This document shows, one piece after another, positions 13,032-33,540 of a DNA stretch of 56,322 nt. A model generated the notes under the pieces. It was not told the DNA's origin and did no database searches. It saw only the letters and a program-made list of their open reading frames with translations. Within the stretch, counting starts at the first letter, position 1. Each line of letters starts with the position of its first letter. Made by a program: the position numbers and the translations under genes. Source of the DNA: Prorocentrum cordatum (taxonomy: Eukaryota); contig CAUYUJ010000096.1 of the NCBI GenBank assembly GCA_963575745.1, positions 62,001 to 118,322 on the forward strand, written 5' to 3'.

Positions 13032-13033
13032 AT

Positions 13034-13462: not shown

Positions 13463-14886
13463 TGTACTGTGTCCTCAGCTTTGTAGAGAGCGGCAAATTC
13501 TGCAGCGATGGTGGCTTTGTTGATAGGAACCTTGGACAACGCATCTTGATTCCAACGAATGACCGTGGCCGCGTCCATGCCAGTGAGCTCCAGTTTGGCG
13601 GTGGGGATGGTGTTGCAGAAAATACGTCCTTGATCACGACGCGCGCGCCAATTGCGCGTGGGGTAGTGGGCCTGACAGAGAGCGAGTAGCTTTTTAGTTT
13701 GAGTTTCCATTCTGATGCGCTTGATGTTCTTATCGGGGTTGACGTAGAGCGGGACGTACTGGCCGTGGTTGATGACGCAGTTAGTGGGGGTCTGAACTGT
13801 GAACTTTCTGTAACCTCCTCGTCCTGGAAGCTGAAGGGCACGAGCGAGCGCAATGGATTTGGTAATGGCGACAGATCGGCCGCCCAGAAGCTGAAGCATG
13901 TAGCGCCGATTGGGTCCTTCACCGTGAATCTGGAACTGCTGCGGGGCCACTTCAGCTGCATCCAGCCATTCTGTGATGGGCGTGCGAACTGCGGCAGCGT
14001 CGACGGGCTGCGCGGAGGAGAGAATGTAGATGGCGGGATCGGGCTCGCGATCCCAGTCTGAGAGCTTGGCCATGTCCAGGATGGGAGCATCGGCTTCGCC
14101 CAGGCTGAGCTGCTGATTGATACGCTGGATGGCGCTCCAGACTTCCTTATGTTGTGATTCTTGTTTGGCTTGAGCGATCTTGATAGCCATGAGGTCTTGT
14201 TCTTGCCCATCCAATCTGCGAGTGGTAGCTGCTTCGTGTCGCTGTAGAGCGGCAATGAACTGCGTTTGCGAGGCGGATACTGTTTCTCCAACTGCGGTAT
14301 TGATTGCTGCCACTTGTGATGCCATGATATGCTTGAGCTCGCGCTGAATGTCTGGGTCCAACGTTGATTGAGACCACGGTCCGCCTGCTGGCGTGGCGGT
14401 GCCTTCTGCTGCATGAGCTGGGGCGGCAGGAAGCTGTGCGGCGGGTAGTTGTGCGGCTTCGTGGGTGTCGCGTGTGGTTTGAGCTTCATGGTGTTCACGT
14501 GCTTGTCGTTCTTGCTGTGCGTGTTGATGAGCTTGCCAGTGAGCTTGTTCTTGAGAGGGAAAAGTAGGTGCTGCATCGAGTTCTTCCAGTGCTGCTCGCT
14601 GCCATGCGTCTTGCGTGGCTGCTGAATGAAATCCACGAGGGGCGCCGTTAGCTTCACGTTCGAGAGGGCCTTTAGAGCGTCCACTGTGTCCTTTGTGCGG
14701 CGGGCGTGAACCTTCAGATGAAGAAATGCGTTGGCGTCGATCCTTATCACGTCGGCGATGTCGATCACGGTCGCGGTCTCTATCTCTGTCGCGCCTTGCT
14801 GAGTGTCTGCGGCGATCCCGACGGTGTCCACTGGCCTGACTTCTGCTCTTGGAGTCACTTCGTGAAGAGGCGGAGGCGGAGTCCAT
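13453..14886 (-). CDS. LINE ORF1 protein (477 aa): RS/RD-rich N-terminus, Q/E/A-rich coiled coil, globular C-terminus
   Basis: Long ATG-initiated ORF ~210 nt after the SL relict, upstream of APE-RT; heptad-like LDGQEQDLMAIKIAQAKQESQHKEVWSAIQRINQQL. Confidence 0.85.
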   Translation of the reverse strand: MDSASASSRSDSKSRSQASGHRRDRRRHSARRDRDRDRDRDRHRRRDKDRRQRISSSEGSRPPHKGHSGRSKGPLEREANGAPRGFHSAATQDAWQRAALEELDAAPTFPSQEQAHWQAHQHAQQERQAREHHEAQTTRDTHEAAQLPAAQLPAAPAHAAEGTATPAGGPWSQSTLDPDIQRELKHIMASQVAAINTAVGETVSASQTQFIAALQRHEAATTRRLDGQEQDLMAIKIAQAKQESQHKEVWSAIQRINQQLSLGEADAPILDMAKLSDWDREPDPAIYILSSAQPVDAAAVRTPITEWLDAAEVAPQQFQIHGEGPNRRYMLQLLGGRSVAITKSIALARALQLPGRGGYRKFTVQTPTNCVINHGQYVPLYVNPDKNIKRIRMETQTKKLLALCQAHYPTRNWRARRDQGRIFCNTIPTAKLELTGMDAATVIRWNQDALSKVPINKATIAAEFAALYKAEDTVQWL

Positions 14887-15094
14887 ACGGAAGTGTGGTA
14901 CAGCACTATGCCACGTGTTGCCTGTCCGATACCAAGCGAGAGAAGAGCCAATCCAAATACCTGCAATCGAATTAGTTGAATTAGTAATTGTGTGACAGTG
15001 AGCTTCGTCTTGCGAATATGGAGCGGAGCCGTGGGCTGGGCGGCCTCACGGTCCAGTGAGTTATAGAATGGAACCGAGCTGAACGGCCAGCTGC

Positions 15095-15131
15095 CTTGAG
15101 CCAGAATGGCTTGAGCCAAAATGGCTACGGA
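15095..15131 (-). other. Dinoflagellate spliced leader (22 nt, perfect) plus tandem 15-nt relict SL
   Basis: Minus strand TCCGTAGCCATTTTGGCTCAAG (15131-15110) followed by CCATTCTGGCTCAAG (15109-15095). Confidence 0.97.
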
Positions 15132-15490
15132 GGAGGAGGAGGAGGAGGAGGAGGAGGAGGAGGAGGAGGAGGAGGAGGGGCAGCAGCGGGGCGCGAGCAC
15201 AAAGAGCGGCCCCGCTCCTGGAGGCAGCGGCGCGCTTAGTGGGCGTCCGCGCCAACCCAGGCCGCCGCTGCCGTTGGTGCCGGCTCGGCCCGCGCCGGCG
15301 CTGGACTGATGCGGCGCGGGGGCCTGAGAGGCAGCGGCCGCGGCCGCTTCGCCTGCGGGGGGAGTGCGGGGGAGGGAGGGAGGGAGGGAGGGAGGAGGGG
15401 AGGAGAAGGAGGAGGAGGAGGAGGAGGCTGAGAACGAGGAGGAGGAGATGGAGGAGGAGGAGAAGAGGAGGAGGGATGGAGGGAGGGAGC
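15132..15490. repeat. (GAG)n/(GGGA)n microsatellites, 5' flank of the LINE
   Basis: Direct reading. Confidence 0.85.
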
Positions 15491-16324
15491 GGCAGCGGCC
15501 GCGGCCGCTTCGCCTGCGGGGGGGGGTGCGGGGGCGAGGCGCCGACATACGTCCAGAAGGTCGGCCCTATGAGAGCACGTCAATTGGGCCGGAGCCCGAG
15601 ATGCGCTTTGGATCCCTGTGTGATCCATGAGCGTGAAGCTCGCGGAGGAGGGGCGGCGACGACGAAGACGACGACGAGGAACAACAACCAAGACAAGTCG
15701 GCAAAAAGCCTACACTTTGGAAAAGGCCGGCCAAGAGCCAACGTTTACGCGTCAGCATGCATTCGGAGTGGCGGAATAGGAGCGAAGTAATGCGAGGTGC
15801 ACTATTCAACTGAAGGCATGCGCTCCTCAGGAGGCCTACCATAAATCGAATGATGATGCCCTGATTATTTTCTTCATGCATTGCCGACGATTGTGAATCT
15901 TTTACTGGGGTTGTCTGGCGAGCCAGAAACTCTGTCCATTACTGTCGAAATTCGGATTCACGCCATCAGCTCCAATAGCCAAGTCTTGTCTGTACTCATC
16001 TCTGACTACGCAATTTTCAGAAGATGTATACAACGCTTCTCCCGAATCCGCGGAGTCGTACTTGAGAGCCACTTGCTGCCTGAATCCGGGTGCCAATGTG
16101 CAACTGCACATTGCAATCTGCTGAGCGACCCTGTCGCATTATTCCACGTGACCTGGGCTGCAGCAGCGGGCCAATCATAATGTTCACGCAACTGAAATTT
16201 TCCCCAATCAGAGCTTGCCTCGGTAGGGTTCCTGGCGGATTCATATGGTTAGGTGAACATTGCCGCCGATTTCTGCGGCCCGCCCTGGTGCCCGGGTGCC
16301 TGGGTGCCCAGGTGCCCGGGCGAC

Positions 16325-16882
16325 TTCTAGCCCTATGGCCCTATAGCCTTCTAGCCCTATAGCCCTGTAGCCCTATAGCCCAACAGGCCTATAGCCCTAT
16401 AGCCCTATATCCTGATAGCCTTATAGCCCTATCGCCCTAGAGCCCTGAAGCTCTATAGTCCTATAGCCCTATAGCCCCATAATCCGATATAGCCCTATAT
16501 AGCCTTACAGCCCAATAGCCCTATAGCCTTGTAGCCCTATAGCCCTATATTCCTATAGCCATATAGCCTTATAACCCTTTAGCCCTATAGTCCCTATAGC
16601 TCTGTATGCCTATAGCCCTATAGCCCCATCGCCCTATAGTCCTATGGTCCTATCGCCCCAAAACCCATAGCCCTATGGCCCTATAGCCCTATAGCCCTAT
16701 AGCCCCATAGCCCCATAGCCCTATAGCCCTACAGCCCTATAGCCCTATGGCCCTATAGCGCTATAGCCCTACAGCCCTATAGACCTATAGCCCTATGGCC
16801 CTATAGCTCTATAGTTCCATAGCCCTGTAGCCCGACAGCCCCATCGCCCTATAGCCCAATAGCCACATAGCCCTCTAGCCCT
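16325..16882. repeat. (GCCCTATA)n 8-bp minisatellite
   Basis: Direct reading, many degenerate units. Confidence 0.95.
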
Positions 16883-17239
16883 AAGCAGACTTCGATTTTT
16901 TTCTCCATTGTCATGTGCTGAAGTATTGAATATCCTATGCCATCCCAGCGATCGTCTATTTCTGCAAGTGCCCGAGCATGTCCGCGACATGTTTTATGAT
17001 GTTCGGGCCAGCCGCTGCCTGCCAACTTGCGACATTCTGCTATTCCTGCCAACATATCAAGTGTATCCTTCAGTTCTTCAACGCTGCCTCCGAAGTCCGC
17101 CGACCCTTTGTGGGTCCTCAGGCGTGTGAGATTGTTCCCCCCCATAATCCCCCCATGGGGGCCACAAACCTCGAATTAAACCCCCCCCGGGCCGCGCCAG
17201 GTTCCGGACAATGCGCGCCAAGGGGGGGGAACGCCCCAA

Positions 17240-18319: not shown

Positions 18320-20005
<1,686 letters not shown>

Positions 20006-20907
20006 AGTCCCTCCTTGCCCGCCTGCTCGATCACAAGATAGACCCAAACATGTCGGCCCACGGGAGCTTCCGAGAACCACTTGCGGCGGGGGCCGAAACG
20101 ATGTCCAAGGTTGCACTGGCGCGTGTTCACGGGCGATCATGGGGAATCTGCCAGCGACGATTTCGACAATTCGAACCGCGCGCGCGCCGCAAACACTCCA
20201 TCAACACACCGGGCACAAAGGCGCACCGACACGCAACACCCATGCGCAAGCAATTACGTTATTTTCACGATACGTCTCTGTGTTTTGCTGAATGCTGGCG
20301 GTGTGCCCGTGGTGCGCCTGCGTCGTGGTGCTCGCGAACGTGCGTTTCCAATGGCAGCGCCCCCGCACAAACGATAGCTCGGTAACGCGACAGGAGAACT
20401 CTAAACTCAGGCCATGCAAGAATATTCCTGGCGTCCATATCCAGAATTCGTCAAATTCATGTTCATTGTAAATTTGGCAGCAATTCCGTTTTGCAAATAT
20501 GAACTCAAGAAACACGCGCCCCTACCAGATGGTTTTTCCGCCCTTGCCAGATGTGCAGTCGCCCACCCATCAGAGCCCCCACCCCCGATCAAGCTCTCCT
20601 TTGTCTCCCCCCCCCGCCCGGCCGTCCTCTTGCAATCAAGATGCGTCTGCTTCCTCCCGGGTGTGAACGATGGCTTCCGTCACTCTCCCCTCGCTCTGAT
20701 CCCTTGCGCCCGGAGCCCCCCGCAAAACGCCCCAAGCCCCGTGGGCATCTTTGAAAATTGCGAGCGTTCCCTGCGTCAAAACACACACGAAACATATTCG
20801 GTTGCAGCGCTACCCCCCGCCACTCCTCCGCCCCCGTGATGTCTTGGCCACCGAATCTCCTCAAAACGCACCCGGTGCCCCTATGTTCGACAAAATTGCG
20901 GGCGTGT

Positions 20908-21091
20908 TGTGGCAGCAGCGAGATGAGCGGATGCTTTTGCCTTGAGCCAAATCGGCAAACAACAGTACTGCCTTCTCTAGCTGACCTCTGCGTCTGAAAC
21001 AAACGAGTTCCCAAACTCGCTCTCATGACATGATCAACAGAAAAGACCATTAAGCTAAACCTATAATACCGAAATCAGGAAGCCTGTCACA
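20908..21091 (-). repeat. 3' LTR (184 bp)
   Basis: 181/184 identical to 30868-31051; termini TGTGACAG...CTGCCACA. Confidence 0.97.
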
Positions 21092-21181
21092 TGGGTCAAG
21101 CTTTCTCCTAGGTTTAGCTTCCCCGTTCAGAAAGCAACAACTGTACACAGCAAGTCAGACATCCTAGAAGAACAGGATGGG

Positions 21182-24100
21182 CTAGGAAGGTGAGTGAGAA
21201 AGGGGGGTCGTCCCGGAGGCCAACCCCAGGGCTGACTGAGCTGAGACAAACTCCGCCCACGATATCAGACGGGAGTCGCCGTCGAGGGTCCTTCTCGAAG
21301 CAGCATGGGATCGGTCCTTCGCACCGGGCTGCTCCTTACGACGGGCCATCTCAGCGCCCTCGTCTATGAGTACCAGCCGACCGTTGGCCAGCAGATTGGC
21401 CAGGGCGGCGTTGCTCTTGCTCACGTCGTCCTTCGTGAGTGCATCCACTGGCATCCTGCCGTGTGGCACCCACCGCACATGGCCCCGGGCTCTCTCGAGG
21501 GTCTCGCAAACCCCCGCCAGGTCCAGGGCGGTGCGCCTGTCTCGGGCACTGGCGTTGCCCTCCTTGAGCATTGTGTCGTAGATGCTTTTTGCATCTACTA
21601 CATGAACTTGATCTACTCGGCCGCCTAGTCGACAGTCCCTCCGGAGAACTGTCGTGAATGGTCCTGAACCCCTGGACGTGTCATTCACATCTACATCTCT
21701 GAAAACCACATCCCGGTACAAGACCTGCAGAAACTCTACTTCCGCCACTGCGGCAGAGAGGGCCTGGGTTTCCCCCGCCAAGGTCGACGAGACCTTCCTA
21801 CGCAACTTAGAGCTACGCCATCCTAACACGGAGGCCTTCACGGCGCAGTTATCCAGCACGCTCCTGTCCGTGGCAAGGATCATCCACGCACCCTGGGTGG
21901 GGTCTTCGGGGAGACCCCTCTCGTCCACAAGCCCTTCGTTAGCTCCAACACCTCCAGCATTCGAGAAGGACACAAACGCCATGCGGTCAGGGTCGAGCTT
22001 CCAAATGCTGAGGCCTCTGGAGGCCGTCGACCTCAAGTACCTCACCATACGATTGGCGATCGTGACGTCGCCGGTCGTAGCTTCCTTAAGACTACTAGCC
22101 ACAATGCTGGCAGCCCCTGCCGCCTCGGGTCGCGTCTCTCGACCGACCCAGTTAAGCTTATATATCAGGGAACGGAGGGACTTGAACTCTGCGGGAGTGA
22201 GAGGTGCTTTCTTTAGCCCGAGCCTCCCGCGCTCCATGCTCACTGGCCTGACCTCCTCTAGTATGTACTTCTCTTGATCGATGAGGGTCCGGTGGGGAGC
22301 AAACGACACGCGCCGTCCGGCGTGCTCGACTGGCCCCTCGTGGCAGTCGCGGTACTTCCCGAATTTGAACCGGGACTCGAGCACCTGACGAATCCAGGTG
22401 CGGGTCTCCCGAGAGCTGCTGGATATGAAGAAGTCATCCACTTCTAGAAGAATCATGTTCAGAATCGCCCCGTCGGGGGCGTACCTAATCCACCAGCACG
22501 GTTCAAGTAGGCTCCTTACGAAACCCTGTTTCTGCAGAAACCCGACCACGGTTTTCCTCCAAGCCAGGGGGGCATCGTCGAGCCCATACACGTTAACAAG
22601 CAAACGGATCAGGGACCCCTTTTCCACTCGGATCCCCTCGCAGGGTTCCACGTAAATCTCGCCTTGGGTCCTCTGCACCGGGTTCGATTGGCAGAACGCG
22701 TTTTTGACATCGGCTATGTCTCCTAGATGACCCAAGTTCATCATGACTTGGACAAACATGAGGATTGACGTGGTCTGAGGTGTGGGCGAATACACGAACA
22801 ACGAACCGGCATCGGGGTCCTTATGCCCGTGGACGCACCATCTCGACTTGGCAGCAGGCTCGGCGAAAGTGCCTTCCACCGGCTTCCACCGACGCACCAT
22901 TCGACTGGTGATTATCCGGTCTGGACAGGTGCGCCTGACGGCCTCCGCCTCCCTAGGAGGTATCACTTCCACCGCCCCCGAGCCCATCATGTTCTGCCAC
23001 TCTTTATCATCAGACATCTCGAACTTCGCTCTCTCCGCTGGGCTGAGCTGTTTGAGGGGAATCTCTCCCCCACGGCTGGCCGCCAGAACCCCGAAGTCCC
23101 CGGAGCTCTCGACCCTTTCCACGAGTCCCAGAAAACACCCGTCCTCGCTGGTCTCCACGAGAAACGAAGTCCCGCCCTCGACCTCGGTCCGGGCCTCAAT
23201 CTCGGCCACCCGTCGTCCAACAAGCTCTCCCCTGGGCCTCGACTGGCTTCTCTCCCTACTGTCTCTGGCGGCGGCAGCGGCACCGACAGCAGCAGCAGAC
23301 GACGACGGAACCGAGTCGGCCTCTTCAGCTGCTGGCTGCTCCAGGCCCGGGGGTGGCTCCACTCGTGGCCGCTTAGCCTCGCTGACCTCTGGTGGACAAC
23401 TGGCGGACCGAACTCCTGGCACCTCGTCTCCCAGGGGTCTCCGAAAACAGTGAGGGGCGTCGCTCGGCTGCTCGAGCTTGGCCCTAGCTGGCCTGACCGG
23501 CGCGGCCGGAGAGGGCGAGGGAGGAGACGACGCCACAGGGAGAGGAGGTTCGGAGGACGGAGGATCGACAGCTTCTCCGGAGATCCCTTTGTCGGGCCCC
23601 GGGACCGCCTGGGGATCCCCTTCGCCCGGAGGCGTGCCAGTACCTGACGATTCTCCTGGCTCCTCGATGCTCTCTGAAATCGAGGGGAGTCGTGTCATCT
23701 CGGACCCCGCGTTGGCCACCGCCGAACCCCCCGCCGATGATGGCCTGGACCGAGGACCCCGCGACCGGAGAAGAGGAGGCCCCGAACCGATGGGATCAAA
23801 ACCACGACCCACGGAGGGAGGGCCCACTGGGCCCGAAGGCTCGGCCACCTCGGACCTGACCCCGGGTCCCGCCAACTGAGGGGCAGAATCCGATTCTGGC
23901 GACAGAGGTTGATCCCAGGCCTCTTCGGGAGGGGGGCCTTCTCGCTGCACGTCCACGGCTGACGCTCGCCTAGACTGCGCCTGGGCCATGAGCTCGGACC
24001 ACTGTGGATCTTGGGCTACTTGAATCCCGAACTCCTCTTCGGGACTAGCGTGCCGCGCCTGTTCGGGGGAGCACTTCCATAGTCGGGCTCTCACTGCCAC

Positions 24101-27100
24101 CCAGACTTTTCCCCTCTCGGCCAACACCGCGACCCCGGGTCCCGTCCAAGCGTCCCGCCTGCGACCCAGCGTGTCCGCCCGCGACCCGGCCCGAGTGAGC
24201 CTGCGCCACACAAACACCCACTGACCAGGGCTGAAAACAGTCTGGGATGGCCCCTTGGCCTTGCTGGCCTTGTGTATCTTATCTCGGGCGGTGGTCTCCA
24301 TGGCCAGACGGCGAGCGACATCTCGGACTCTCTGAGAGCGGGCGAACTCCGCACCGGCAGAGTCCTGTTCGGACGGTGGCCGCAAGCAGTCTTGCCATCC
24401 GGGAAGGCCCAAGTGGTCATCCGACAGAATCTCATGCGGTAAGCGTGGGTTCTCTCCGAAAACCAACTGCATGGGCGAAAAGCCTCCCCGGTGCCAAAAC
24501 CTGTTTTTGTGGGCGCAGAGCTCATAGATGAGCTCGTCCAGTTCTTGCACGTCTCCGGGCAGAGCGGACCCGGCCTCGACCTCGCTTTTGATTCGTTCTT
24601 TGATCCATCCCCCGTGGCGCTCAACCCGACCGTTCTGCCAGGGGGAGTTAGCATCGCAGACGTGGTGCAGTACCCCCCATTGCTCTAGGCCGCGAGCAAA
24701 TCTCTCTTCGAACTCTGGGCCCCCATCTGAGAGAAGAAAGTGAGGAGCGCCGAATGGCCTTATCCAGGCTGAGACGAACGCGCGCCACACAAGAGAGGCC
24801 TTGGGTTCCTCGACCCGCACGCATATCTGCAGGTTGGATCCGTGATCGACGATCTTGAGATAGGGCAGGACCTTGTCCTGATATGGAACATAAAACAAAT
24901 CGACGCCCACAATGTGGTTAAAACGAAAAGTCCGCGGCATGGCGACTCGGCGATGACTGCTTGACCGAGCCCGCTCGGCACACTCTGAGCACTTAAAGGA
25001 GTCTCGAACCCACTTCAGAATGTGGACCTTGACTCCCCCGGCTCTCAAGACTCGCACGAATTTCCTATTGCACGGGTGTCCCATGTTAACGTGCAACCGC
25101 AACGCCAGCCTCTTTTCGGTCTCCGATGGGTCCGGAAGGGGTTCGCTCACCTTGACACTGCTGGGAAGCCTAGTCTCGGGCACATCTTCGTCCTCACTCC
25201 CTTCCGGATCCTCCTCCTCGGGGCCCAGGCCTTCATCTCCCTCAGGAAAGTCTCCTTCCTCGTACTGGGCCCAAGTCACCGGCCGTGGTCGACGAGGTCC
25301 GCTCCATTCTTCTGTCACTGCGCGAGACACGGCCTCCGCAAAGGCCGGAGGATACTCCTGGGCAGAGGAGGTCCTGCTCTTACCCTCGAGCAGCACGTGT
25401 CTGTGGTCCCCCGGACAGAGGTGCCCCTCGAGGATCTCTTGGAGTCTGGGGTGGTTCGTTAAGATCCCGGTCGGTTTCTTGTTTAACCCATCTCTGGTCA
25501 CACTCAAACCAAAGGTGCACATGTCAACCCGCGTCCTGCGGACCCCGGGTAGGTTAGACACGAGCTGAACTACCTTAGTTGCCCACGAACTCGCGAACAG
25601 AGGGTGTTCAAAAGCAAAGTACCGGCCTTTCGCTACCCGATCGCTAGCGATCTCCATGCACAGAATAAGATCGTTTATGCCCTCGACGATCGCTCGTTTC
25701 CATTTGATCGGATCGCGAGCGGCCTGACTGATCCTGCTGATGATCGAAAATACTCGACAAGGTGGGCAGAGCCAGGTCAGCTCGGGGTCGTCTCGGTCGA
25801 GGGCCTCCCAAAGCTCCCTGCGGTCCTTGGGAATCCGGGAGTCCCAGCCTTGGGCAATATCCCAACTGGCCCTGGGACCCAGCGCCCCCCCCCGACGCTC
25901 GACCCTGGGAGCAATCCTAGGGGGAAAAAACACTTCCATAAAGGCCGTCCCCCTCTTACGTGGCAGGGCGCGGTCTAATAGCACCGCTGTCTCAGAGTCG
26001 TCCGGGGCCGAAACCATAGCCTCCAGGGAAGCTCTGACGCGGGGAGGGCACGACACCTCGTGATCGTCATTGACGACATCCCCCAACAACCATTCGGCTC
26101 CCTCAAACTCGGCCGAAACCCGGTCTGGGAACCCCCCGGCGTCAGCCCCCGCAAGTCTCTCCTTGGCCCGTCCCCGGGGTTGAGATCCCGCGAGACGATC
26201 TTGACTCACCAATTCTCTCGCTGTCGGAACCGTGTCCTCAGTCAGAAATATCGGAAAGCAGGAAGAGGAGTTATGGAGAGGAGAGGTGGAAGGAGTCAGA
26301 GAGCAGGGACACGAGGAGCGACACTTCTCCGCACCTGGCGCAACAGAAGCAGTGCAGCCGCCTCGAGAGAAGACGGCACCAAGGCCTAGCGAACGACCCC
26401 TCGGCCGTTCTGCTCCACTACTGGCTCGTCCTAGGTCCCTGGGCCAGAGCTGCTGATGTCGCTCATGTCGCTCAGGACCTCCCAGCCCGCTGCGGGACTC
26501 TCCTCCTCTGGTATGGAATAGAGACTGCCCACGGTCGTCGCTGACGTCGTCGTTGTCCCCGTCGTAGTGAGTCCGTCCCGCTCGCCCAGCGGCTGGTACG
26601 ATTGGGGTGCCTGAGCTGGCTGCGACGGCATACTCTGCTGTGCTGCCGGCGGCTGACCCGTCGGTGGTGCCGACTGCGCTGGCTGCTCGCTGCCACTGCT
26701 GCCCGCCCCTGCCGCTCCCGCTGGCGACTCGTACCATGGATCCCCCATCTGCCAGGCTGGGTTCGCCTGCCCTGTGTTCATCACCTGGGCGATGGAAGCG
26801 ACGGCCGTCCCGATGTTCACCACCATGTACCCGATCTGCTGGAGTGCCGTCTCCACGTTGTTCACCGCGCCGACAAGGCCATTGATGGACTCCTGTAGGG
26901 TGTCCAGACTCTCCGCGAAGCTCTCGAACGTCCCCAGGATGTTCCTGATGTGCTGGATGCCCTGGAAGATCTGCCGCAGACCCTCCTGGGTCTCGCTGGG
27001 CACACTGAGCGCCTGAGTCGCCACAGCCGTCATCTGATCCAGAACCGACTGGATCTGCCCAAACGCTCGAATGCCCTCCGGCACCTCCTGCAGCTGCCAT

Positions 27101-27304
27101 TGGAGGCTCTGGAGGAGCCCAGCGAGCTGGTTGACCGTGGTCAGCGCCGCGCCCCCCGATCGGAAGCCCGGGTCCTCCTGGAGGTACTGGAGCATCCTCT
27201 GGGAGTTGGCCGCGGCCTGCCTGGCTGCTTCCGCTGCCGACGGAGGTGGTGGCTGATCTCCTCCTGGTCCTCCTTGCTGGCCGACTGGGATCCACTCGAT
27301 CCTC
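21182..27304 (-). CDS. pol: Pol portion of the copia polyprotein: spacer, MTase-like domain, integrase, Pro-rich linker, RT, RNase H
   Basis: Part of the 2314-codon frame; IN LHVNMGH...CSEC, VGVDLF, LSDGGPEF, NGRVERHGG; RT AKSRWCVHGHKDPD, ADVKNAFCQ, VYGLDDAP, EVDD, FKFGK; RH SFSNAG, SSTLAGETQA, VDAKSIYD, VDALTK. Confidence 0.92.
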   Translation of the reverse strand, partial: EDRVDPSRPARRTRRRSATTSVGSGSSQAGRGQLPEDAPVPPGGPGLPIGGRGADHGQPARWAPPEPPMAAAGGAGGHSSVWADPVGSGSDDGCGDSGAQCAQRDPGGSAADLPGHPAHQEHPGDVRELRGESGHPTGVHQWPCRRGEQRGDGTPADRVHGGEHRDGRRFHRPGDEHRAGEPSLADGGSMVRVASGSGRGGQQWQRAASAVGTTDGSAAGSTAEYAVAASSGTPIVPAAGRAGRTHYDGDNDDVSDDRGQSLFHTRGGESRSGLGGPERHERHQQLWPRDLGRASSGAERPRGRSLGLGAVFSRGGCTASVAPGAEKCRSSCPCSLTPSTSPLHNSSSCFPIFLTEDTVPTARELVSQDRLAGSQPRGRAKERLAGADAGGFPDRVSAEFEGAEWLLGDVVNDDHEVSCPPRVRASLEAMVSAPDDSETAVLLDRALPRKRGTAFMEVFFPPRIAPRVERRGGALGPRASWDIAQGWDSRIPKDRRELWEALDRDDPELTWLCPPCRVFSIISRISQAARDPIKWKRAIVEGINDLILCMEIASDRVAKGRYFAFEHPLFASSWATKVVQLVSNLPGVRRTRVDMCTFGLSVTRDGLNKKPTGILTNHPRLQEILEGHLCPGDHRHVLLEGKSRTSSAQEYPPAFAEAVSRAVTEEWSGPRRPRPVTWAQYEEGDFPEGDEGLGPEEEDPEGSEDEDVPETRLPSSVKVSEPLPDPSETEKRLALRLHVNMGHPCNRKFVRVLRAGGVKVHILKWVRDSFKCSECAERARSSSHRRVAMPRTFRFNHIVGVDLFYVPYQDKVLPYLKIVDHGSNLQICVRVEEPKASLVWRAFVSAWIRPFGAPHFLLSDGGPEFEERFARGLEQWGVLHHVCDANSPWQNGRVERHGGWIKERIKSEVEAGSALPGDVQELDELIYELCAHKNRFWHRGGFSPMQLVFGENPRLPHEILSDDHLGLPGWQDCLRPPSEQDSAGAEFARSQRVRDVARRLAMETTARDKIHKASKAKGPSQTVFSPGQWVFVWRRLTRAGSRADTLGRRRDAWTGPGVAVLAERGKVWVAVRARLWKCSPEQARHASPEEEFGIQVAQDPQWSELMAQAQSRRASAVDVQREGPPPEEAWDQPLSPESDSAPQLAGPGVRSEVAEPSGPVGPPSVGRGFDPIGSGPPLLRSRGPRSRPSSAGGSAVANAGSEMTRLPSISESIEEPGESSGTGTPPGEGDPQAVPGPDKGISGEAVDPPSSEPPLPVASSPPSPSPAAPVRPARAKLEQPSDAPHCFRRPLGDEVPGVRSASCPPEVSEAKRPRVEPPPGLEQPAAEEADSVPSSSAAAVGAAAAARDSRERSQSRPRGELVGRRVAEIEARTEVEGGTSFLVETSEDGCFLGLVERVESSGDFGVLAASRGGEIPLKQLSPAERAKFEMSDDKEWQNMMGSGAVEVIPPREAEAVRRTCPDRIITSRMVRRWKPVEGTFAEPAAKSRWCVHGHKDPDAGSLFVYSPTPQTTSILMFVQVMMNLGHLGDIADVKNAFCQSNPVQRTQGEIYVEPCEGIRVEKGSLIRLLVNVYGLDDAPLAWRKTVVGFLQKQGFVRSLLEPCWWIRYAPDGAILNMILLEVDDFFISSSSRETRTWIRQVLESRFKFGKYRDCHEGPVEHAGRRVSFAPHRTLIDQEKYILEEVRPVSMERGRLGLKKAPLTPAEFKSLRSLIYKLNWVGRETRPEAAGAASIVASSLKEATTGDVTIANRMVRYLRSTASRGLSIWKLDPDRMAFVSFSNAGGVGANEGLVDERGLPEDPTQGAWMILATDRSVLDNCAVKASVLGWRSSKLRRKVSSTLAGETQALSAAVAEVEFLQVLYRDVVFRDVDVNDTSRGSGPFTTVLRRDCRLGGRVDQVHVVDAKSIYDTMLKEGNASARDRRTALDLAGVCETLERARGHVRWVPHGRMPVDALTKDDVSKSNAALANLLANGRLVLIDEGAEMARRKEQPGAKDRSHAASRRTLDGDSRLISWAEFVSAQSALGLASGTTPLSHSPS
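25320..25945 (-). other. C5 cytosine DNA methyltransferase-like domain within Pol
   Basis: Ordered motifs FMEVFFPPR (I-like), WDIAQGWD (II/III), LCPPCRVFS (IV, PC), FAFEHP (VI), VDMCTFGL (VII), KKPTGIL (VIII), AQEYPPAFAEAV (X-like). Confidence 0.72.
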
Positions 27305-28111
27305 TCCGCACACCGTACAGCGAGAGCCACTTCCCCATTGATTCCCGTAGTGCTTGATGGCTCTGGGCGGATGGGGGCACCGGTCCGCGGGTGGTGCGGC
27401 GGATGCCTCCGGCTTCGGCGCTGGCTTCGGCGGTGGCTTCCCGGCTGCTGGCCTGGTCAACGGAGCGTCCCCGCACCCCGCAGCACGAGGGGGCACCTCG
27501 ATCCCGGCCGCGATCACCTCGGGAGGAGGTCCGTCGGGCGGTGGAGGAGTCGCTCCCGCCTGCACCATGGCTGCCGCCGCAGCCGCCGCCCCAGGAGGTG
27601 CCTGAGGAGGGAGTGGCACGGGGGGAAACTCCATGGCTGCCGCTGCTGCCTGCCAGCGCACTGGTCCTGGCCTTGCTCCTGGCTTGGGGCTTGGCCTGAC
27701 CGCTGCCCGAGCCGTCCTCTGAGCCTCGGCTTGTCCTGCACCGAAGGCCGCGTGATCGTACTGGATGATGTTCCCGCTCGGATCGGGCGCCCCCTGGAAC
27801 GGCCCCGCCAGAAGTACCTGCGTCGCTGTAGCACTCGAACCTGCTGGACTCCCGAGAGGGGGCAGCTCCAACTGCTGGCCACTCGATGTTCCTGGCGTCG
27901 CCTGGGGCATGGCAGCGTCGGCCTCGTCGAGGCCTGCGGTTGCCTGGTCGAACGACTCCGAGGACACATCTGACTCTGCGTTCCGACGTGCCAGAAACTC
28001 CTCGGTCGCCTGGGCTGCCTTGCCGGTGGTGGCCCTCTTCGGGCCCGCCTGGGCGGTTGCCGTCAACACGACAAGGATTGCTACACGAAGCCCTGCCATG
28101 ACTCCTTGCAT
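26431..28111 (-). CDS. Nested overlapping ORF (~560 aa after repairing one indel at ~27305): hydrophobic N-terminus, Pro/Ala-rich region, CxH...CxxC, amphipathic helical domain
   Basis: MQGVMAGLRVAILVVLTATAQAG...CPH..GNQWGSGSRCTVCG in one frame joins ERIEWIP...LQSLQWQLQEV...FESFAESLDTLQESINGLVGAVNNVETALQQI in the next; stop at 26431. Confidence 0.6.
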
Positions 28112-30722
28112 GGACGCTGGAGACAAACTGCGATTGCTGAAAGTTGCGCTGTTGGAAGCGTCGCTGATAGCTGCAGCTCGAGCCGATGGCTACGGATAGG
28201 ACCATGAGTGTGTGTGCCGTCAGGCACCACAACCTTACGGCGTTAACGACGAGGGCCTTAGTTCCCTGCTCAAGCGCCCGACACAGGTTTCGTGACACCT
28301 TCTTTCCCAGAGTTTCCCAAAGCTCCGAGACCCTGCTCCTACTCCTGGCTCGAGCGGTCTCCACTGTCGTCTCGTCCTTCTGCATCGCCTTAGCACTCGC
28401 TCGGGATCCTGAGGCAACTACTGATGACGAGCAGGCCGTCTGAGCCCGCGGCACGATTCCTAGAACTCCGTGCTCTCGTACTCCGAATTGCTCTGGGACC
28501 ACTCCGTCTGGTCGCCTGGGACCTGGGACGATGATGAGGACCGATGTGATGATGTACTTGCTGAGCTCGCCAGTCGCGTCCATGATGGGTGCTCTCTCGC
28601 CTGCTGACAGCTGGAAGGAAGTGGCCGCCAGGAAAGGATACTTCTCTAGCGCACTCGTCGGCGCCAAAAGAGAACCTGACACCGCGCATACGATATCTGC
28701 CATGCGGTGTCCCGAACTGAGCTTCTGTAAAGGAATGTCGCGCCTCAACTTGCTGGACGACAGCATATTCCTGGGCAGGTCGAGGGTGCGCCCCAGGAAG
28801 TCTAGCAAGTTGACGCTCAAAATATGCGGGACGTCCTCATTCAGGACAGTCGTCTCGACGATCCCGAGGACCCCGCCGAGGCACAGTGGATACAGCACGG
28901 TGCCGATCACTCGCGCCTCACCGCCGATGCCGTGTGCCTTCTTGGGCGCCTTGAACTCCCTCGGTACTGCGACGTAGCATAGCCCCTGCTTGGCCAGGGA
29001 CTCGGCCTCGAGGTTGAGGGAAGGCAGGCCGTCGATGTCGCTGCCTGCTCCAGGGTCGACCAAGCCCTGCGTCACTGCCGCATTCAGGAAAACATCCGTG
29101 GCCCTGACCTCTGCCTGCACCCGCTGCAGAACCTGCAGCTCGTCGCGCGAGATCACCGGGTAGTTGTTGCAGCCGTCGAACGTGTAGCCCGCCAGGCCCC
29201 GGCTTGCTGAGGCCTCCTTCCGATCTCGCGGAGGGTGAGGACACTCGCGATGCCAGTGACCTTTCTCCTTGCAGTTGTGGCACTTCGTTATCTTCATGAG
29301 CTTCTTGCGGTGTGCATCTTCGGACCTTGCTCCTCGATCTCCTGGCTCGCGTCGTCCTCCGCTGCGACCTGGCCGAGCATCTCGACCCTTGCCGCGGCTG
29401 CGGCCCTTGCCGGCACCGCTGGGGGGACGAGCGCCAAAGTACTCGCGGTCCTGCTTAGCCGCCCGCTTCAAGTCCTTGTTCTGCTTCCAGGTGCGCTTGA
29501 CCTGTCTCTCCATCTGCATGTATACCTCCTCGGCCTCGCCCTCAGAGATGTCTAGATCGTCGATCTCCGCCAAAATGGCTTGCGCGTCGCCCTCCGACAG
29601 GTCGTCGGAGTCGTCGTCTCCCTCCTCAGCATCTTCGTCGTAGTAGGAGTCGTCTCCGGCTTCGTCAGCCCCTGGGTTGGCCGTCGGGAACGACTGCTGA
29701 GGGTAGGACGAGGGAGGAGGGGAAAGAATCTGACCGCCCGCGTTGTCTCGGCCGACTTCTGCGGCGAGGACTGGATGCGAGCTTGTCCTACCCGGAAGTA
29801 GCTTCTCGCCGCTTCCGTAATCTAGCTGTCTCAGCGCCCACGATACTTGATCGTAGTCAAGGCTGCCGCGGGTGAGCGTCCTCAGGTTCTGCTGGCCCTG
29901 TGCTGACAAACCAGCACCTTCTTCCAGTAGAAAGCCCTTCAGCTTAGTAGACATCCAGATATCGTGGGTCTCGGCCTCGGCGAGCTGCTGGTCGCGCCTG
30001 ATGACGAACTGCGTCAGCGTCTCCTTGGACTCTCGCGTGCACTCGATGAGTGCTCGCCTTCCTGCTCGCCTGAGGTCGTCTCCCTCACGCTCGCCCGCCA
30101 TGGCGTCCATGCGGCGCAGGACCGCGTCCAGCCACTGCCCGCCGGTGATCACGTCGTCGCTGAGATCCTCGAACTTCGCCTGCATGGCCCAGTCGAACCC
30201 CTTCATCAGTTTCTCGTAGCGCCGCCAGACCTGGACATCCGTGCCCTGGTTCCAGCGCAAGATAGACTTCTTCCACAGTCTGTAGTGGGCCCAGCCGGGC
30301 CACGAGGGAGGATCGGAGAAGTCGCCCTTGGACCACTGGCTGGACGACCACTCCTGGCCTTGCCACTCCTGGCTGGGCCATCCCTGGTCGCGCGACCGCC
30401 ATTCTCGCTGCTGCCAGCTCTGATCCTTCCACTGATCTGAGCCGTCCTTGTCGCGCTTCCAGGGATCCGTGTCCTCCCACGGGTCCTTCTCTTCTCGTTG
30501 TCTACACGATCTCGTATCCGTCGAGCCTGCTGTCTCGCCGATAGTGTCCCTCACTACCTCTCTGACCAGGTCGCGCAGCTGCGCGCGGAACTGGTCCCCC
30601 TGCTCGACAACAGGTCCTCCTGACCCAGCGGGCTGACCGGCAGCGGCCGCCGGAGCTGGCGGTGGCTGCTCGGTGCTGCCCATCGTCGCATAGACACCAT
30701 CGTTGTTGTTGTCTGCCGGCAT
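27305..30722 (-). CDS. gag: Gag-protease portion of the copia polyprotein
   Basis: First ATG 30722; RESKETLTQFVIR capsid-like motif; CHNCKEKGHWHREC zinc knuckle (29241-29282); protease-like LVDPGA (~29046-29063) and ILSVNLLDFLG; frame as assembled stays open to 27141. Confidence 0.88.
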
Positions 30723-30851
30723 GCTCACGCCCGCCGTGGATCCACGCACTGCACGTCCTCGGAGGAGCGGCAGTCGCCTGGCCTCTCGAGCGGTCCCGAC
30801 GCCACCGCCCTAGCGGCGCCTGGGTCCACCCCTGCCGGCCATGGCTGACCA

Positions 30852-30865
30852 CCGCTCCGCTACCA
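30852..30865 (-). promoter_or_regulatory. Primer binding site (tRNA-Met(i)-like)
   Basis: TGGTAGCGGAGCGG 2 nt inside the 5' LTR end; resembles the complement of initiator Met tRNA 3' ends. Confidence 0.8.
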
Positions 30866-30867
30866 AC

Positions 30868-31051
30868 TGTGGCAGCAGCGAGATGAGCGGATGCTTTTGC
30901 CTTGAGCCAAATCGGCAAACAACAGTACTGCCTTCTCTAGCTGACCTCTGCGTCTGAAACAAACGAGTTCCCAAACTCGCTCTCATGACATGATCAACAG
31001 AAAAGATCATTAACCTAAACCTATAATGCCGAAATCAGGAAGCCTGTCACA
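30868..31051 (-). repeat. 5' LTR (184 bp)
   Basis: Matches 20908-21091; followed by PBS. Confidence 0.97.
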
Positions 31052-31773
31052 GTGTGGCGCTTCAAACTACAAGCGGGAGCTTTCGATGTCGGCCATGGTC
31101 GTCGTCAACCCCCACGCCCGGCCCCCGCGAAACCAACGCCCATCAGCTTAAACGTTTCCTGCTTCAGCGAGCAGCGGGAAAAGACTGGTTGGCGCTCCTG
31201 CGAATCGGTGGTATGCAGCAAAAAGCTGCGTACCGCAGTTTGGAATTCCACCAATCCACAACACATTGGGTCGGCGGATGTGGCGTCAGCCTGTAGAATC
31301 TTCCATTTCTCCTTGGTCCGTGCCGCAGGTTGTCTGATATTGCATACCTGTCAACATGCGGTCGCATATGGTTTCGAGCTTGAGACGATTTGCACATCCA
31401 TGTATTCGTCCAAGGCCTTCCAGCCTCGGTATGACTTTACGTGTGTTGGCATCCTCGCGCAGCGTCTGGTCTAAATTCGCACCTCTTGATGTCGAACTCC
31501 CAACGGTCGAGACTAACTCGCCGATTTGTGTGCTCATCCGAGAAATTCCTCACTCCATAATGAGTGGAATATTCATCATGTCTACGTGGCATTACTGTTG
31601 CCACACTCCACCAGAACAACAACCGAAACCACCTTCTAAACACTATCTTGGTGGCGTTCCGCGCCGATGCAGACAGGGTTGCACGTCGAAGCGAAATGAC
31701 TCAAAGCCTCACTCACACAAGACGTGCTATAAACAAATCTGTAAGTGCAGTGGGCGGAATAGCTGCAAACCCC

Positions 31774-33085: not shown

Positions 33086-33159
33086 CTGGCGGGGGGAAGG
33101 CAGGGTAGAGAAGGGGGCTTCATCGACTCCAGGGGGAGGGAAGGAGAGAAAGGGCTATT

Positions 33160-33540
33160 CTGATGATGATGATGATGATGATGATGATGCTGATGGTGAT
33201 GGTGATGGTGGTGGTGATGATGATGCTGTTATTGGTGGTGGTGATGATGATGTTGATGATGATGATGATGACGACAGCATTGATGATGCAGATGCTGCTG
33301 CTGATGATGCTGCTGATATTGTTGTTGTTGTTGATGATGATGATGATGCATATAATGATACTGATGCTGCTGATGCTGAGGATGCTGATGCCGAAGATGA
33401 TGCTGATGCTGCTGCTAACGATGATGCTGGTGATGAGGATGAGGATGAGGATGGGGATGCTGATTATGTTGTTGTTGATGATGGAGAGGGATGAGGATGA
33501 GGAGGAGAGGGATGAGGAGGAAGAGGAGGAGTAGGAGGAG
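33160..33540. repeat. Degenerate (GAT)n/(GAG)n microsatellite
   Basis: Direct reading. Confidence 0.93.

What the first reader, a model, noticed from the sequence alone, without database searches (positions are those of the whole stretch)
25320..25945. Ty1/copia polyprotein carrying a C5 DNA-methyltransferase-like domain between protease and integrase
Seen: a ~205-aa globular segment in the Pol frame, just upstream of the integrase HHCC, with FMEVFFPPR, WDIAQGWD, LCPPCRVFS, FAFEHP, VDMCTFGL, KKPT and AQEYPPAFAEAV. Established: C5-MTases have motifs I (FxGxG), IV (PCxxFS catalytic Cys), VI (ENV), VII, VIII and X in this order, and DNMT capture is known for Symbiodinium LINE and DIRS elements and a charophyte Ty3/Gypsy. 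I do not recall it being characterised in a copia, but cannot verify that. Inference: a protease-released, particle-packaged MTase could methylate the element's own cDNA before integration (self-silencing or host mimicry). The divergent motifs I and VIII and the very short target-recognition region suggest a distinct subfamily or altered activity.
Basis: partly seen in the sequence, partly recalled or inferred. Interest (0 to 1): 0.88.

Follow-up and report, generated by a model that had tools for sequence, protein, structure and literature searches.

The report
Copia retrotransposon carrying mini cytosine-methyltransferase domain
A jumping gene of the Copia type, apparently from a coral-symbiont-like dinoflagellate, carries between its protease and integrase a small, strongly conserved domain related to the short DNA cytosine methyltransferases of viruses, something reported for other jumping-gene classes in these algae but said to be missing from Copia.

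Summary
All seven motifs lie in one frame at 25320-25945 (-), inside a 10.1-kb LTR Copia element (20908-31051). The segment is a real domain: 3867 cluster representatives match it at E<=0.001. Where the neighbouring domains are detectable, it sits after the zinc knuckle and before the integrase. It is about as conserved as integrase and RT. AlphaFold gives a confident model (pLDDT 94.8). All 41 listed Foldseek PDB rows and the eight best VIA-align rows are C5 cytosine methyltransferases. Pfam does not see it. Profile-profile comparison links it over its whole length to ~220-aa phage/prophage C5-MTases (97.4%), and these link to Dcm-type enzymes (97.7%). The catalytic Cys, the ENV-type Glu, the motif-I aromatic residue and the motif-II acid are 99-100% conserved. 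The glycine loop is replaced by S-P-P-R, and the target-recognition domain by a Cys/His cluster. Methyl transfer is therefore inferred, not shown. The copy in the window looks defective, with frame breaks and a private change in motif I. Five literature searches found no description; a 2018 paper states that Symbiodinium Copia lacks any DNMT domain. Verdict: new variant of a known kind, interest 0.72.

The parts
20904..20907 (.). GTGT flanking the element; the same four bases lie at 31052-31055. Possible 4-bp target-site duplication.
   Evidence: Read from the sequence. A 5-bp match fails (CGTGT against GTGTG).
20908..21091 (-). 3' LTR, 184 bp, with TG...CA ends
   Evidence: Direct-repeat family D5, 98% identical to 30868-31051. 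The alignment shows 3 mismatches in 184.
21287..23074 (-). RT and RNase H-like block. The Pfam RVT_2 match is at 22352-22861.
   Evidence: RVT_2 E 1.8e-12, 47.9 bits against cut-off 31.6, residues 1777-1946 of P0002. tblastn with six relatives covers 23074-21287. The RNase H part is assigned by position and conservation only.
24614..25096 (-). Integrase: zinc-finger His/Cys residues (25096-24974) and the rve core with D, D, E motifs
   Evidence: rve E 3.5e-6, 27.6 bits, below the cut-off of 32.6. rve was found in 11 of 27 long relatives.
25301..25945 (-). C5-methyltransferase-like accessory domain (residues 13-227 of the 231-aa query). Cys75 codon is 25757-25759, Glu125 codon 25607-25609. Motif-I residue 19 (Phe here, Ser in 94% of the family) is 25925-25927.
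25946..28649 (-). Poorly conserved linker in which the reading frame changes. Frame A stops at 27141. A coiled-coil-like stretch is read in a third frame (26431-27456). Frame B carries the downstream enzymes.
   Evidence: ORF list. Third-position GC is 0.86-0.87 in frame C against 0.39-0.43 in frame B for 27200-26700. Frame C has stops upstream of 27456. No relative matches the linker, apart from one weak hit.
28683..29075 (-). Retropepsin-type protease. Active-site Asp codon is 29055-29057 (VDPGAG); flap GIGG at 28914-28934.
   Evidence: AF2 model of 28650-29252 has pLDDT 74.1 overall and 81-92 over residues 61-190, except one block at 71. All listed Foldseek PDB rows are Ddi1 RVP domains, retroviral proteases or a bacterial retropepsin-like protease; best E 4.2e-4. 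The Asp is nearly invariant in 14 sequences. Pfam found nothing.
29238..29282 (-). Gag CCHC zinc knuckle
   Evidence: zf-CCHC E 0.0032, 17.9 bits, below the cut-off of 20.8. A zinc-knuckle match was found in 12 of 27 long relatives, above the zf-CCHC cut-off in 8 of them.
29283..30722 (-). Gag-like region, from the first Met of frame A
   Evidence: tblastn with five of six relatives covers 30383-28653 in this frame.
30849..30865 (-). Primer-binding-site-like stretch, TGGTAGCGGAGCGGTGG, two bases after the 5' LTR
   Evidence: Read from the sequence. Its likeness to the initiator-Met tRNA primer sites of Copia elements is recalled, not tested.
30868..31051 (-). 5' LTR

Best explanation
Shown: the segment is a genuine accessory enzyme domain of a very large lineage of Ty1/copia retrotransposons. 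All named relatives come from Symbiodiniaceae dinoflagellates. The domain is a roughly 215-residue, TRD-less member of the C5 cytosine-methyltransferase superfamily. Its closest relatives are the ~210-230-aa stand-alone C5-MTases of phages, prophages and giant algal viruses. It keeps the catalytic Cys of motif IV (S-P-P-C-x-x-F-S), the Glu of motif VI (F-E-H-P), the aromatic residue and leading Glu of motif I, and an invariant Asp at the motif II position. It also keeps the K-P-T..T-N block that it shares with the short viral enzymes. The glycine loop of motif I is replaced by S-P-P-R. The target-recognition domain is replaced by a short conserved Cys/His cluster (C155, C189, H193, H195).

Inferred: after cleavage from Pol by the element's protease, the domain works inside the particle as a SAM-dependent cytosine-C5 methyltransferase of low sequence specificity. 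Cys75 would attack C6 of the flipped base and Glu125 would protonate N3. The target would be the element's own reverse-transcribed DNA, so that the new copy enters an almost fully CG-methylated genome already marked as self.

The copy in the window is probably not functional.

The confidence of 0.38 is for the whole statement, including the inferred DNA-methylating mechanism. For the shown part alone (a real, constrained domain homologous to C5-MTases) I would give about 0.9.
For: Family and constraint:
- 3867 representatives match at E<=0.001.
- In 11 of 11 relatives where rve is detectable, the domain lies N-terminal to it. Where detectable, CCHC lies upstream and RVT_2 downstream.
- Mean pairwise identity in 14 polyproteins is 0.30-0.43 for the domain, 0.37-0.48 for integrase, 0.37-0.49 for RT and 0.20-0.29 for linkers.

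Fold:
- The AF2 model has pLDDT 94.8 and pTM 0.90.
- All 41 listed Foldseek PDB rows are DNMT1, DNMT3, MET1 or ZMET2; best E 3.3e-4.
- VIA-align against 48,161 chains gives C5-MTases in its eight best rows: DNMT3A Z 11.3 (193 aligned, rmsd 5.0), DNMT3B 10.8, prophage MTase 3g7u 9.9, M.HhaI 9.8.
- The BFVD best hits are 210-225-aa viral proteins, among them a putative cytosine MTase of Tetraselmis virus 1 (E 3.2e-6 to 9e-4).

Sequence:
- tblastn against phages hits the Bacillus phage BCP8-2 and BMBsp2 'C-5 cytosine DNA methylase' genes (E 7e-3 to 1e-2).
- Pairwise BLASTP to BCP8-2 gp179 gives E 2e-9 and shares KPT-ILTNHP. That phage protein passes Pfam PF00145 at 30.4 bits against a cut-off of 22.
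- hhalign of the Copia family against the short-MTase family gives probability 97.4%, E 1e-11, 198 columns, full length of both. The short family against Dcm-type enzymes gives 97.7%, E 2e-12.
- A family profile against the PDB returns only three DNMT2-type chains, all aligned at the PPC motif (E 0.064-1.5).

Residues in 138 copies: E16 96%, F/Y18 99%, R22 98%, D41 100%, C75 99%, E125 99%, P127 100%, K169 99%, T171 99%, H195 99%.

Context (PMC5890265, passages read): most CG sites in Symbiodinium are methylated. DIRS-borne DNMTs methylate CG de novo in yeast. The authors propose cDNA self-methylation for those elements.
Against: - Pfam PF00145 does not match the window's domain at E<=1. Only 2 of 46 family members match it weakly (best E 0.047).
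- Direct hhalign of the family against Dcm-type C5-MTases gives only 1.7-2.6% probability, so the sequence link is transitive.
- phmmer of the single sequence against the PDB finds only an unrelated FMN reductase at E 0.68.
- The structural margin over generic Rossmann dehydrogenases is modest (Z 11.3 against 8.6).
- The SAM loop FxGxG is not kept (S-P-P-R). The motif III strand is absent or much shortened in the model. QxRxR of motif VIII is not recognisable, and no TRD is present. SAM binding and DNA recognition are therefore unproven.
- I found no experimental work on the short viral branch either (listing only).
- CpG observed/expected in the element (0.88) does not differ from the flanks (0.84-0.87).
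- The window's copy has Phe at residue 19, where 94% of the family has Ser. All three contigs of a related public run read Ser at that place (25926 A>G, depth 46 of 46).
- Its polyprotein is split over two or three frames.
Confidence: 0.38

Rival explanations
1. The domain keeps C5-MTase-type covalent pyrimidine chemistry or base-flipping binding but is not a SAM-dependent methyltransferase. It could be a DNMT3L-like binding module. It could also be an enzyme that uses Cys75 and Glu125 for another reaction on nucleic acid, with a different ligand in the remodelled pocket.
For: The glycines of motif I are replaced by P-P-R in 84-98% of copies. No strand or 'GD[IV]' motif III is modelled between residues 41 and 68. 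hhalign puts a gap opposite the short MTases' motif III segment. There is no TRD. Pfam PF00145 fails.
Against: Pocket residues are under very strong conservation: E16, F/Y18, S19, R22, D41 and G45 at 94-100%. These include the aromatic and acidic residues that bind the adenosine of SAM in canonical enzymes (role recalled from M.HhaI). The short viral relatives, which pass PF00145, also carry an Arg at the same loop position (G-T-R). The loop variant therefore predates the Copia capture. A pure binding module would not need an invariant Cys-Glu pair.
Confidence: 0.3
2. It is an RNA cytosine-C5 methyltransferase in the manner of DNMT2. It would act on the element's genomic RNA or on the primer tRNA inside the particle, rather than on DNA.
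For: The only PDB sequences that the family profile reaches are DNMT2 and tRNA(Cys38) methyltransferases. There is no TRD for duplex DNA recognition. De Mendoza et al. raise RNA methylation as a possibility for SymbioLINE-DNMT (PMC5890265, discussion passage).
Against: The DNMT2 matches are weak (E 0.064-1.5) and cover only the PPC motif. The best structural matches are DNA enzymes, with DNMT2 lower (S. pombe Dnmt2 Z 8.0). The nearest sequence relatives are phage proteins annotated as DNA methylases, though that activity is itself untested.
Confidence: 0.15
3. The motifs are a chance resemblance in a generic Rossmann-like or non-functional spacer of the polyprotein.
For: There is no Pfam hit. 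Short-chain dehydrogenases also reach Z about 8 against the model.
Against: The family has thousands of homologues with invariant Cys, Glu, Asp and Lys. Its conservation equals that of integrase and is far above the linkers. Profile-profile probability to bona fide PF00145 members is 97.4% over the full length. Every top structural hit in two PDB searches and one viral library is a C5-MTase.
Confidence: 0.02

Closest known systems
Short (~210-230 aa) stand-alone C5 cytosine methyltransferases of phages, prophages and giant viruses. Examples are Bacillus phage BCP8-2 gp179 (P0299, 224 aa) and the putative cytosine DNA methyltransferase of Tetraselmis virus 1 (218 aa).
   Same: They have the same size and lack a TRD. 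The full-length profile-profile match is 97.4%. Shared features: E-x-[FY]-x at motif I with an Arg in the loop, S-P-x-C-x-x-[FY]-S, F-x-E-x-P, C-x-[FY] followed by K-P-T-x-x-x-T-N, a Cys/His cluster, and a C-terminal P-x-x-L-C helix. The best BFVD structural matches have TM 0.53-0.69.
   Different: The viral proteins are free-standing genes, pass Pfam PF00145, and keep one Gly in the loop (A-G-T-R) and the E-W-D / D-I motifs II and III. The Copia domain is embedded in Pol, has S-P-P-R, has P-P-C instead of P-D-C, has E-H-P instead of E-N-P, and has a shorter motif II-III segment. As far as I could find, the activity of the short branch is itself uncharacterised (listing only).
Retrotransposon-borne DNMTs: SymbioLINE-DNMT, SymbioDIRS-Dnmt3 and KnitGypsy-Dnmt3 (de Mendoza et al. 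2018, PMC5890265), and EpiLTRs (bioRxiv 10.64898/2026.05.21.726589)
   Same: A C5-MTase-family domain sits inside a retrotransposon coding region. For the Symbiodinium elements the host clade is the same. The catalytic Cys and Glu are conserved, and the proposed role is methylation of the element's own nucleic acid.
   Different: Those domains are PF00145-detectable, full-size DNMT3, DNMT4-like or bacterial-like enzymes in LINE, DIRS, Gypsy or chromovirus elements. This one is a TRD-less short-type domain that Pfam misses, in a Copia element between PR and IN. The 2018 paper states that Symbiodinium Copia 'lacks any DNMT domain'. The 2026 preprint does not contain the word Copia.
Canonical C5 DNA methyltransferases (M.HhaI, Dcm, DNMT1, DNMT3A/B)
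   Same: They share the Rossmann-type catalytic fold (Z 8.8-11.3). The PC Cys and the ENV Glu align in register even in the weak direct hhalign.
   Different: The Copia domain has no TRD: about 190 residues of it span M.HhaI 10-326. It has no FxGxG and no recognisable QxRxR. It has about 215 residues against 327 or more.
Heat-activated Ty1-copia-like elements of Symbiodinium microadriaticum (SmTCL; Chen et al. 2017, PMC5776459)
   Same: Same superfamily and host family, with LTR - gag - PR - IN - RT - RNase H order.
   Different: That paper describes only RT, integrase, RNase H and LTRs (passages read). It mentions no extra domain. Whether SmTCLs carry this domain was not tested here.

Membership tests
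C5 cytosine methyltransferase (Pfam PF00145 / DNMT superfamily) | Matches the PF00145 profile above its gathering score | tested here: not met
   No family at E<=1 for the window's domain. 2 of 46 family members match PF00145, best E 0.047. 0 of 27 long relatives match at E<=0.001.
C5 cytosine methyltransferase (Pfam PF00145 / DNMT superfamily) | Class I Rossmann methyltransferase fold, with C5-MTases as the nearest structures | tested here: met
   pLDDT 94.8. All 41 listed Foldseek rows are DNMTs. The VIA-align top 8 are all C5-MTases, Z 11.3-8.8, with the first other fold at 8.6.
C5 cytosine methyltransferase (Pfam PF00145 / DNMT superfamily) | Motif IV Pro-Cys with the catalytic Cys | tested here: met
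   P73 98%, P74 70%, C75 99%, F78 90% and S79 91% in 138 copies. Aligned to PCQ-FS of DNMT2 and of Dcm-type enzymes.
C5 cytosine methyltransferase (Pfam PF00145 / DNMT superfamily) | Motif VI E-N-V with the catalytic Glu | tested here: met
   E125 99% and P127 100%. Asn is replaced by His (79%) or Gln (18%). In register with ENV in hhalign.
C5 cytosine methyltransferase (Pfam PF00145 / DNMT superfamily) | Motif I F-x-G-x-G SAM-binding loop | tested here: not met
   The consensus is E-x-[FY]-S-P-P-R. The aromatic residue is kept (99%), but there is no Gly at the loop positions (P20 84%, P21 92%, R22 98%).
C5 cytosine methyltransferase (Pfam PF00145 / DNMT superfamily) | Motif II acidic residue and motif III Asp for the adenosine of SAM | tested here: inconclusive
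   D41 is 100% conserved at the offset of the short MTases' S-x-E.
C5 cytosine methyltransferase (Pfam PF00145 / DNMT superfamily) | Motif VIII Q-x-R-x-R and a target-recognition domain between motifs VIII and IX | tested here: not met
   The region reads D-x-C-x-F-G...K-P-T...T-N, followed by C-x-G-x-H-x-H. There is no insert of TRD size in a domain of about 215 residues.
C5 cytosine methyltransferase (Pfam PF00145 / DNMT superfamily) | SAM-dependent methyl transfer to C5 of cytosine | not testable with these tools
   Needs biochemistry.
Short viral/prophage C5-MTase branch (BCP8-2 gp179-like) | Full-length profile homology and the same TRD-less size | tested here: met
   hhalign probability 97.4%, E 1e-11, query 10-224 against template 3-224. 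BLASTP E 2e-9. BFVD hits of 210-225 aa.
Short viral/prophage C5-MTase branch (BCP8-2 gp179-like) | Free-standing gene of a virus or prophage | tested here: not met
   Here it is a domain inside a Copia Pol frame.
Ty1/copia LTR retrotransposon | Copia-type RT (RVT_2), with integrase upstream of RT | tested here: met
   RVT_2 47.9 bits against cut-off 31.6. The rve core at 24641-24919 lies upstream of RT at 22352-22861 on the coding strand.
Ty1/copia LTR retrotransposon | LTRs with TG..CA ends, target-site duplication, and PBS next to the 5' LTR | tested here: met
   184-bp LTRs, 181 of 184 identical, TG..CA. GTGT lies on both flanks, which is 4 bp, not the usual 5. The PBS-like TGGTAGCGGAGC was read from the sequence; its tRNA match is recalled only.
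Ty1/copia LTR retrotransposon | Gag zinc knuckle and retropepsin protease upstream of integrase | tested here: met
   zf-CCHC E 0.0032, sub-threshold here. The protease model matches Ddi1, EIAV, RSV and HIV retropepsins.
Ty1/copia LTR retrotransposon | One continuous (or singly frameshifted) gag-pol reading frame in an intact copy | tested here: not met
   Frame A ends at 27141. GC3 puts the coding frame of 27200-26700 in a third frame. The enzymes are in frame B. Relatives have single ORFs of 2500-2650 aa.

The most novel reading that the evidence does not exclude
The Copia-borne mini-methyltransferases are catalytically active, sequence-unspecific C5-MTases captured from a virus. They are encoded by what is reported to be the most abundant retrotransposon superfamily of Symbiodiniaceae. 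They would therefore be a major and so far uncounted source of the 'default' genome-wide CG hypermethylation of these dinoflagellates, which lack Dnmt1 and Dnmt3. They would also define the smallest working C5-MTase architecture, with a zinc-type Cys/His cluster in place of the TRD.
Probability: 0.12. Interest if true: 0.95.

Novelty: new variant of a known kind. Interest (0 to 1): 0.72.

Why it matters
Capture of cytosine methyltransferases by retrotransposons is known for LINE, DIRS and Gypsy elements. In the same algae, Copia elements are reported as the most abundant retrotransposons, and they were explicitly reported to lack a DNMT domain (PMC5890265). That survey counted DNMT genes with the Pfam model PF00145, which this domain does not hit.

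A family with thousands of representatives that keeps the catalytic Cys and Glu would change the count of methyltransferase-like genes in Symbiodiniaceae genomes. It would add a fourth retrotransposon class to the list. It would also point to short viral methyltransferases as donors.

It offers a compact natural test case for two questions: what a C5-MTase can do without a target-recognition domain, and what it can do without the glycine SAM loop.

If the domain is active, it bears on how these genomes reach near-complete CG methylation without Dnmt1 or Dnmt3.

Tried and rejected
- The whole-genome search failed because no genome is held for this window.
- Earlier scan findings, searched by sequence and by words, returned nothing.
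- dN/dS among close copies could not be computed. With P0005 it returned only 2 loci, 95% and 35% identical.
- The sequencing-run search listed one DNA holder (share 0.35) and no RNA holder, so nothing can be said about expression.
- Laying that run's contigs showed 483 pieces at 85-100% identity and 787 differing places. Only 40 of these were printed, too few for a substitution analysis.
- Direct hhalign of the family against Dcm-type profiles was weak (1.7% and 2.6%; the -glob run was meaningless).
- The genome search with PF00145 gave only the E. coli dcm locus and no control loci.
- The first Dcm homologue search returned only orthologues of >=74% identity. I replaced it with 77 more diverse loci.
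- CpG depletion as a footprint of self-methylation: no difference from the flanks.
- The Cys/His cluster as a zinc site could not be checked, because model coordinates are not exposed.
- A cysteine-protease reading of the Cys/His residues was dropped once a retropepsin was found upstream and the fold proved to be MTase-like.
- Literature: five searches found no description of this domain in Copia and no work on the short viral branch. Supplements of PMC5890265 were not opened.
Full report
**Observation.** The minus-strand translation of 25320-25945 is open. It belongs to a 2335-codon open frame, 21182-28189.

**The element.** Two 184-bp direct repeats, at 20908-21091 and 30868-31051, differ at 3 positions. 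They start with TG, end with CA and are flanked by GTGT on both sides. Between them, on the minus strand, the following parts lie in order:
- a Gag-like region with a sub-threshold CCHC knuckle at 29238-29282;
- a protease;
- a long linker;
- the domain in question;
- an integrase, with rve E 3.5e-6 at 24641-24919;
- a Copia-type RT, with RVT_2 at 47.9 bits against a cut-off of 31.6.

The protease was invisible to Pfam. An AlphaFold model of 28650-29252, built with 13 relatives, has pLDDT 81-92 over residues 61-190, except one block at 71. All its listed Foldseek matches are Ddi1 RVP domains, retroviral proteases or a bacterial retropepsin-like protease. The placement 'between protease and integrase in a Ty1/copia element' is therefore correct.

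**The domain is real and constrained.** phmmer of a 231-aa stretch (25289-25981) against 1.84 billion cluster representatives found 3867 proteins at E<=0.001 and 1270 at <=1e-10. I scanned 27 long hits with Pfam:
- 10 carry RVT_2, 11 carry rve, and 12 have a zinc-knuckle match, above the zf-CCHC cut-off in 8;
- 6 show no family at all;
- none carries RVT_1 or PF00145.

In all 11 hits with rve, the domain lies 115-220 residues upstream of it. Only 4 of the 20 clusters that I looked up carry an organism name. All four are Symbiodiniaceae: Cladocopium goreaui, Durusdinium trenchii (twice) and Effrenium voratum.

In an alignment of 14 polyproteins, mean pairwise identity per 40-residue block is 0.30-0.43 in the domain. 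It is 0.37-0.48 in integrase, 0.37-0.49 in RT and 0.20-0.29 in the linkers. In 138 full-length copies of the domain, 27 positions are >=85% conserved.

**What it is.** Pfam gives nothing for the window's copy. Only 2 of 46 family members touch PF00145, at E of about 0.05. A family profile against all PDB sequences returns three chains, all of DNMT2 type and all aligned at the PPC motif (E 0.064-1.5).

The AlphaFold model, built from 46 sequences, has pLDDT 94.8 and pTM 0.90. The structural searches gave these results:
- Foldseek against the PDB lists only DNMT1, DNMT3, MET1 and ZMET2 chains (41 of 41 rows; best E 3.3e-4, TM 0.4-0.5).
- VIA-align against 48,161 representative chains puts C5-MTases in the first eight places. 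DNMT3A has Z 11.3, DNMT3B 10.8, a prophage MTase 9.9 and M.HhaI 9.8. About 190 model residues span M.HhaI 10-326.
- The first unrelated Rossmann protein comes at Z 8.6, so the margin is real but not large.
- In the viral structure library, the best matches are proteins of 210-225 residues. One is a putative cytosine methyltransferase of Tetraselmis virus 1.

tblastn against phage genomes then hit 'C-5 cytosine DNA methylase' genes of Bacillus phages (E 7e-3 to 1e-2). One of these, BCP8-2 gp179 (224 aa), passes PF00145 at 30.4 bits against a cut-off of 22. It aligns pairwise to the window's domain with E 2e-9, including an identical KPT-ILTNHP. It stands for a very large group of 210-230-aa proteins.

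Profile-profile comparison closes the chain. The Copia family against this short family gives 97.4% probability, E 1e-11, over the full length of both. The short family against 77 Dcm-type enzymes gives 97.7%, E 2e-12. The direct comparison of the Copia family with Dcm-type enzymes stays at 1.7-2.6%, although PC and ENV fall in register. The homology is therefore well supported, but transitive.

**Anatomy of the active site.**
- Motif I reads E-x-[FY]-S-P-P-R. The leading acid (96%) and the aromatic residue (99%) are kept, but the glycines are gone. The short viral enzymes have A-G-T-R, so the Arg is shared.
- An invariant Asp41 sits at the offset of their S-x-E (motif II).
- G45-W46-D47 follows. 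No β3 strand is modelled there.
- Motif IV is S-P-P-C-x-x-F-S (C75 99%).
- Motif VI is F-E-[HQ]-P (E125 99%, P127 100%).
- In place of Q-x-R-x-R and the TRD come D-x-C-x-F-G, K169-P-T171 (99% each), T-N176, and then C189-x-G-x-H193-x-H195.

That the Cys/His residues form a zinc site is my inference. So is the assignment of roles by analogy with M.HhaI, which I recall rather than tested.

**Mechanism.** Shown: the fold, the homology, the conserved Cys-Glu pair, a conserved pocket at the cofactor site, and the position in Pol. Inferred: release by the element's protease, SAM-dependent methyl transfer to cytosine C5 with little sequence specificity, and action on the element's cDNA.

This reading parallels what de Mendoza et al. 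proposed for SymbioDIRS-Dnmt3, in a genome where most CG sites are methylated (PMC5890265, passages read). I give it 0.38. I give 0.30 to a non-methylating activity or binding role, because motifs I and III are remodelled. I give 0.15 to an RNA target.

CpG content gives no signal: 0.88 in the element against 0.84-0.87 in the flanks.

**The copy in the window.** Gag and protease are in one frame, which stops at 27141. The enzymes are in another frame. Third-position GC content shows that 27200-26700 is read in the third frame, as a coiled-coil-like stretch. Relatives have one ORF of 2500-2650 codons.

Residue 19 is Phe, where 94% of the family has Ser. In the one public run that holds the family, all three contigs over that place read the Ser codon (25926 A>G, depth 46 of 46). 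That run holds 483 contig pieces at 85-100% identity. R115 and S202 also depart from the family consensus, but they occur in the nearest relatives too. The copy is young by its LTRs but probably defective, unless the frame changes are assembly errors.

**Novelty.** The 2018 paper counted DNMT genes with PF00145 (figure legend) and states that Symbiodinium Copia 'lacks any DNMT domain'. A 2026 preprint that lists TE-borne DNMTs does not contain the word Copia. The paper on S. microadriaticum Copia elements mentions only RT, integrase and RNase H. Five full-text searches found nothing else. I did not open supplements, and I could not query InterPro or Repbase.

I rate the finding as a new variant of a known kind, with interest 0.72.

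Noticed in passing
window 10230-15566 (-): A 1779-codon open frame with an Exo_endo_phos endonuclease (E 8.8e-11) and RVT_1 (E 8.3e-15). This is a LINE-type element about 5 kb from the Copia. Its first ~900 residues have no Pfam match, PF00145 included, so it is not an obvious SymbioLINE-DNMT.
   Followed up: partly
window 26431-27456 (-): A 341-codon ORF in a third frame inside the Copia linker. It has very high third-position GC (0.86) and heptad-like, coiled-coil composition. Pfam gives only sub-threshold hits to coiled-coil families, and no match was found in the family proteins held.
   Followed up: partly
window 27296-27380 (-), frame B of the linker: A Cys/His-rich stretch (CPHPP...CTVCGEDR) that may be a small zinc ribbon. 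One relative (P0056) has a GRF zinc finger (E 3.2e-9) at the corresponding place in its linker.
   Followed up: no
window 16256-16900, 18446-19600 and 33137-33520: Long arrays of very short tandem repeats, with units of 8 bp (CCCTATAG-like) and 9-15 bp, on both sides of the Copia element.
   Followed up: no
L085 (Bacillus phage BCP8-2, 123620-126355): The short C5-MTase gene (gp179, 224 aa) is separated from a second, longer 'C-5 cytosine methylase II' gene by an HNH endonuclease gene. This arrangement may say something about how the short form arose or works.
   Followed up: no
window 20800-31150, public run X1: Differences between the window's copy and the 483 related contig pieces are dominated by transitions (A>G 166, G>A 176, C>T 147, T>C 120, against 12-37 for each transversion). 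Several pieces carry indels in the linker and one carries an indel in the MTase-like domain (25884).
   Followed up: no
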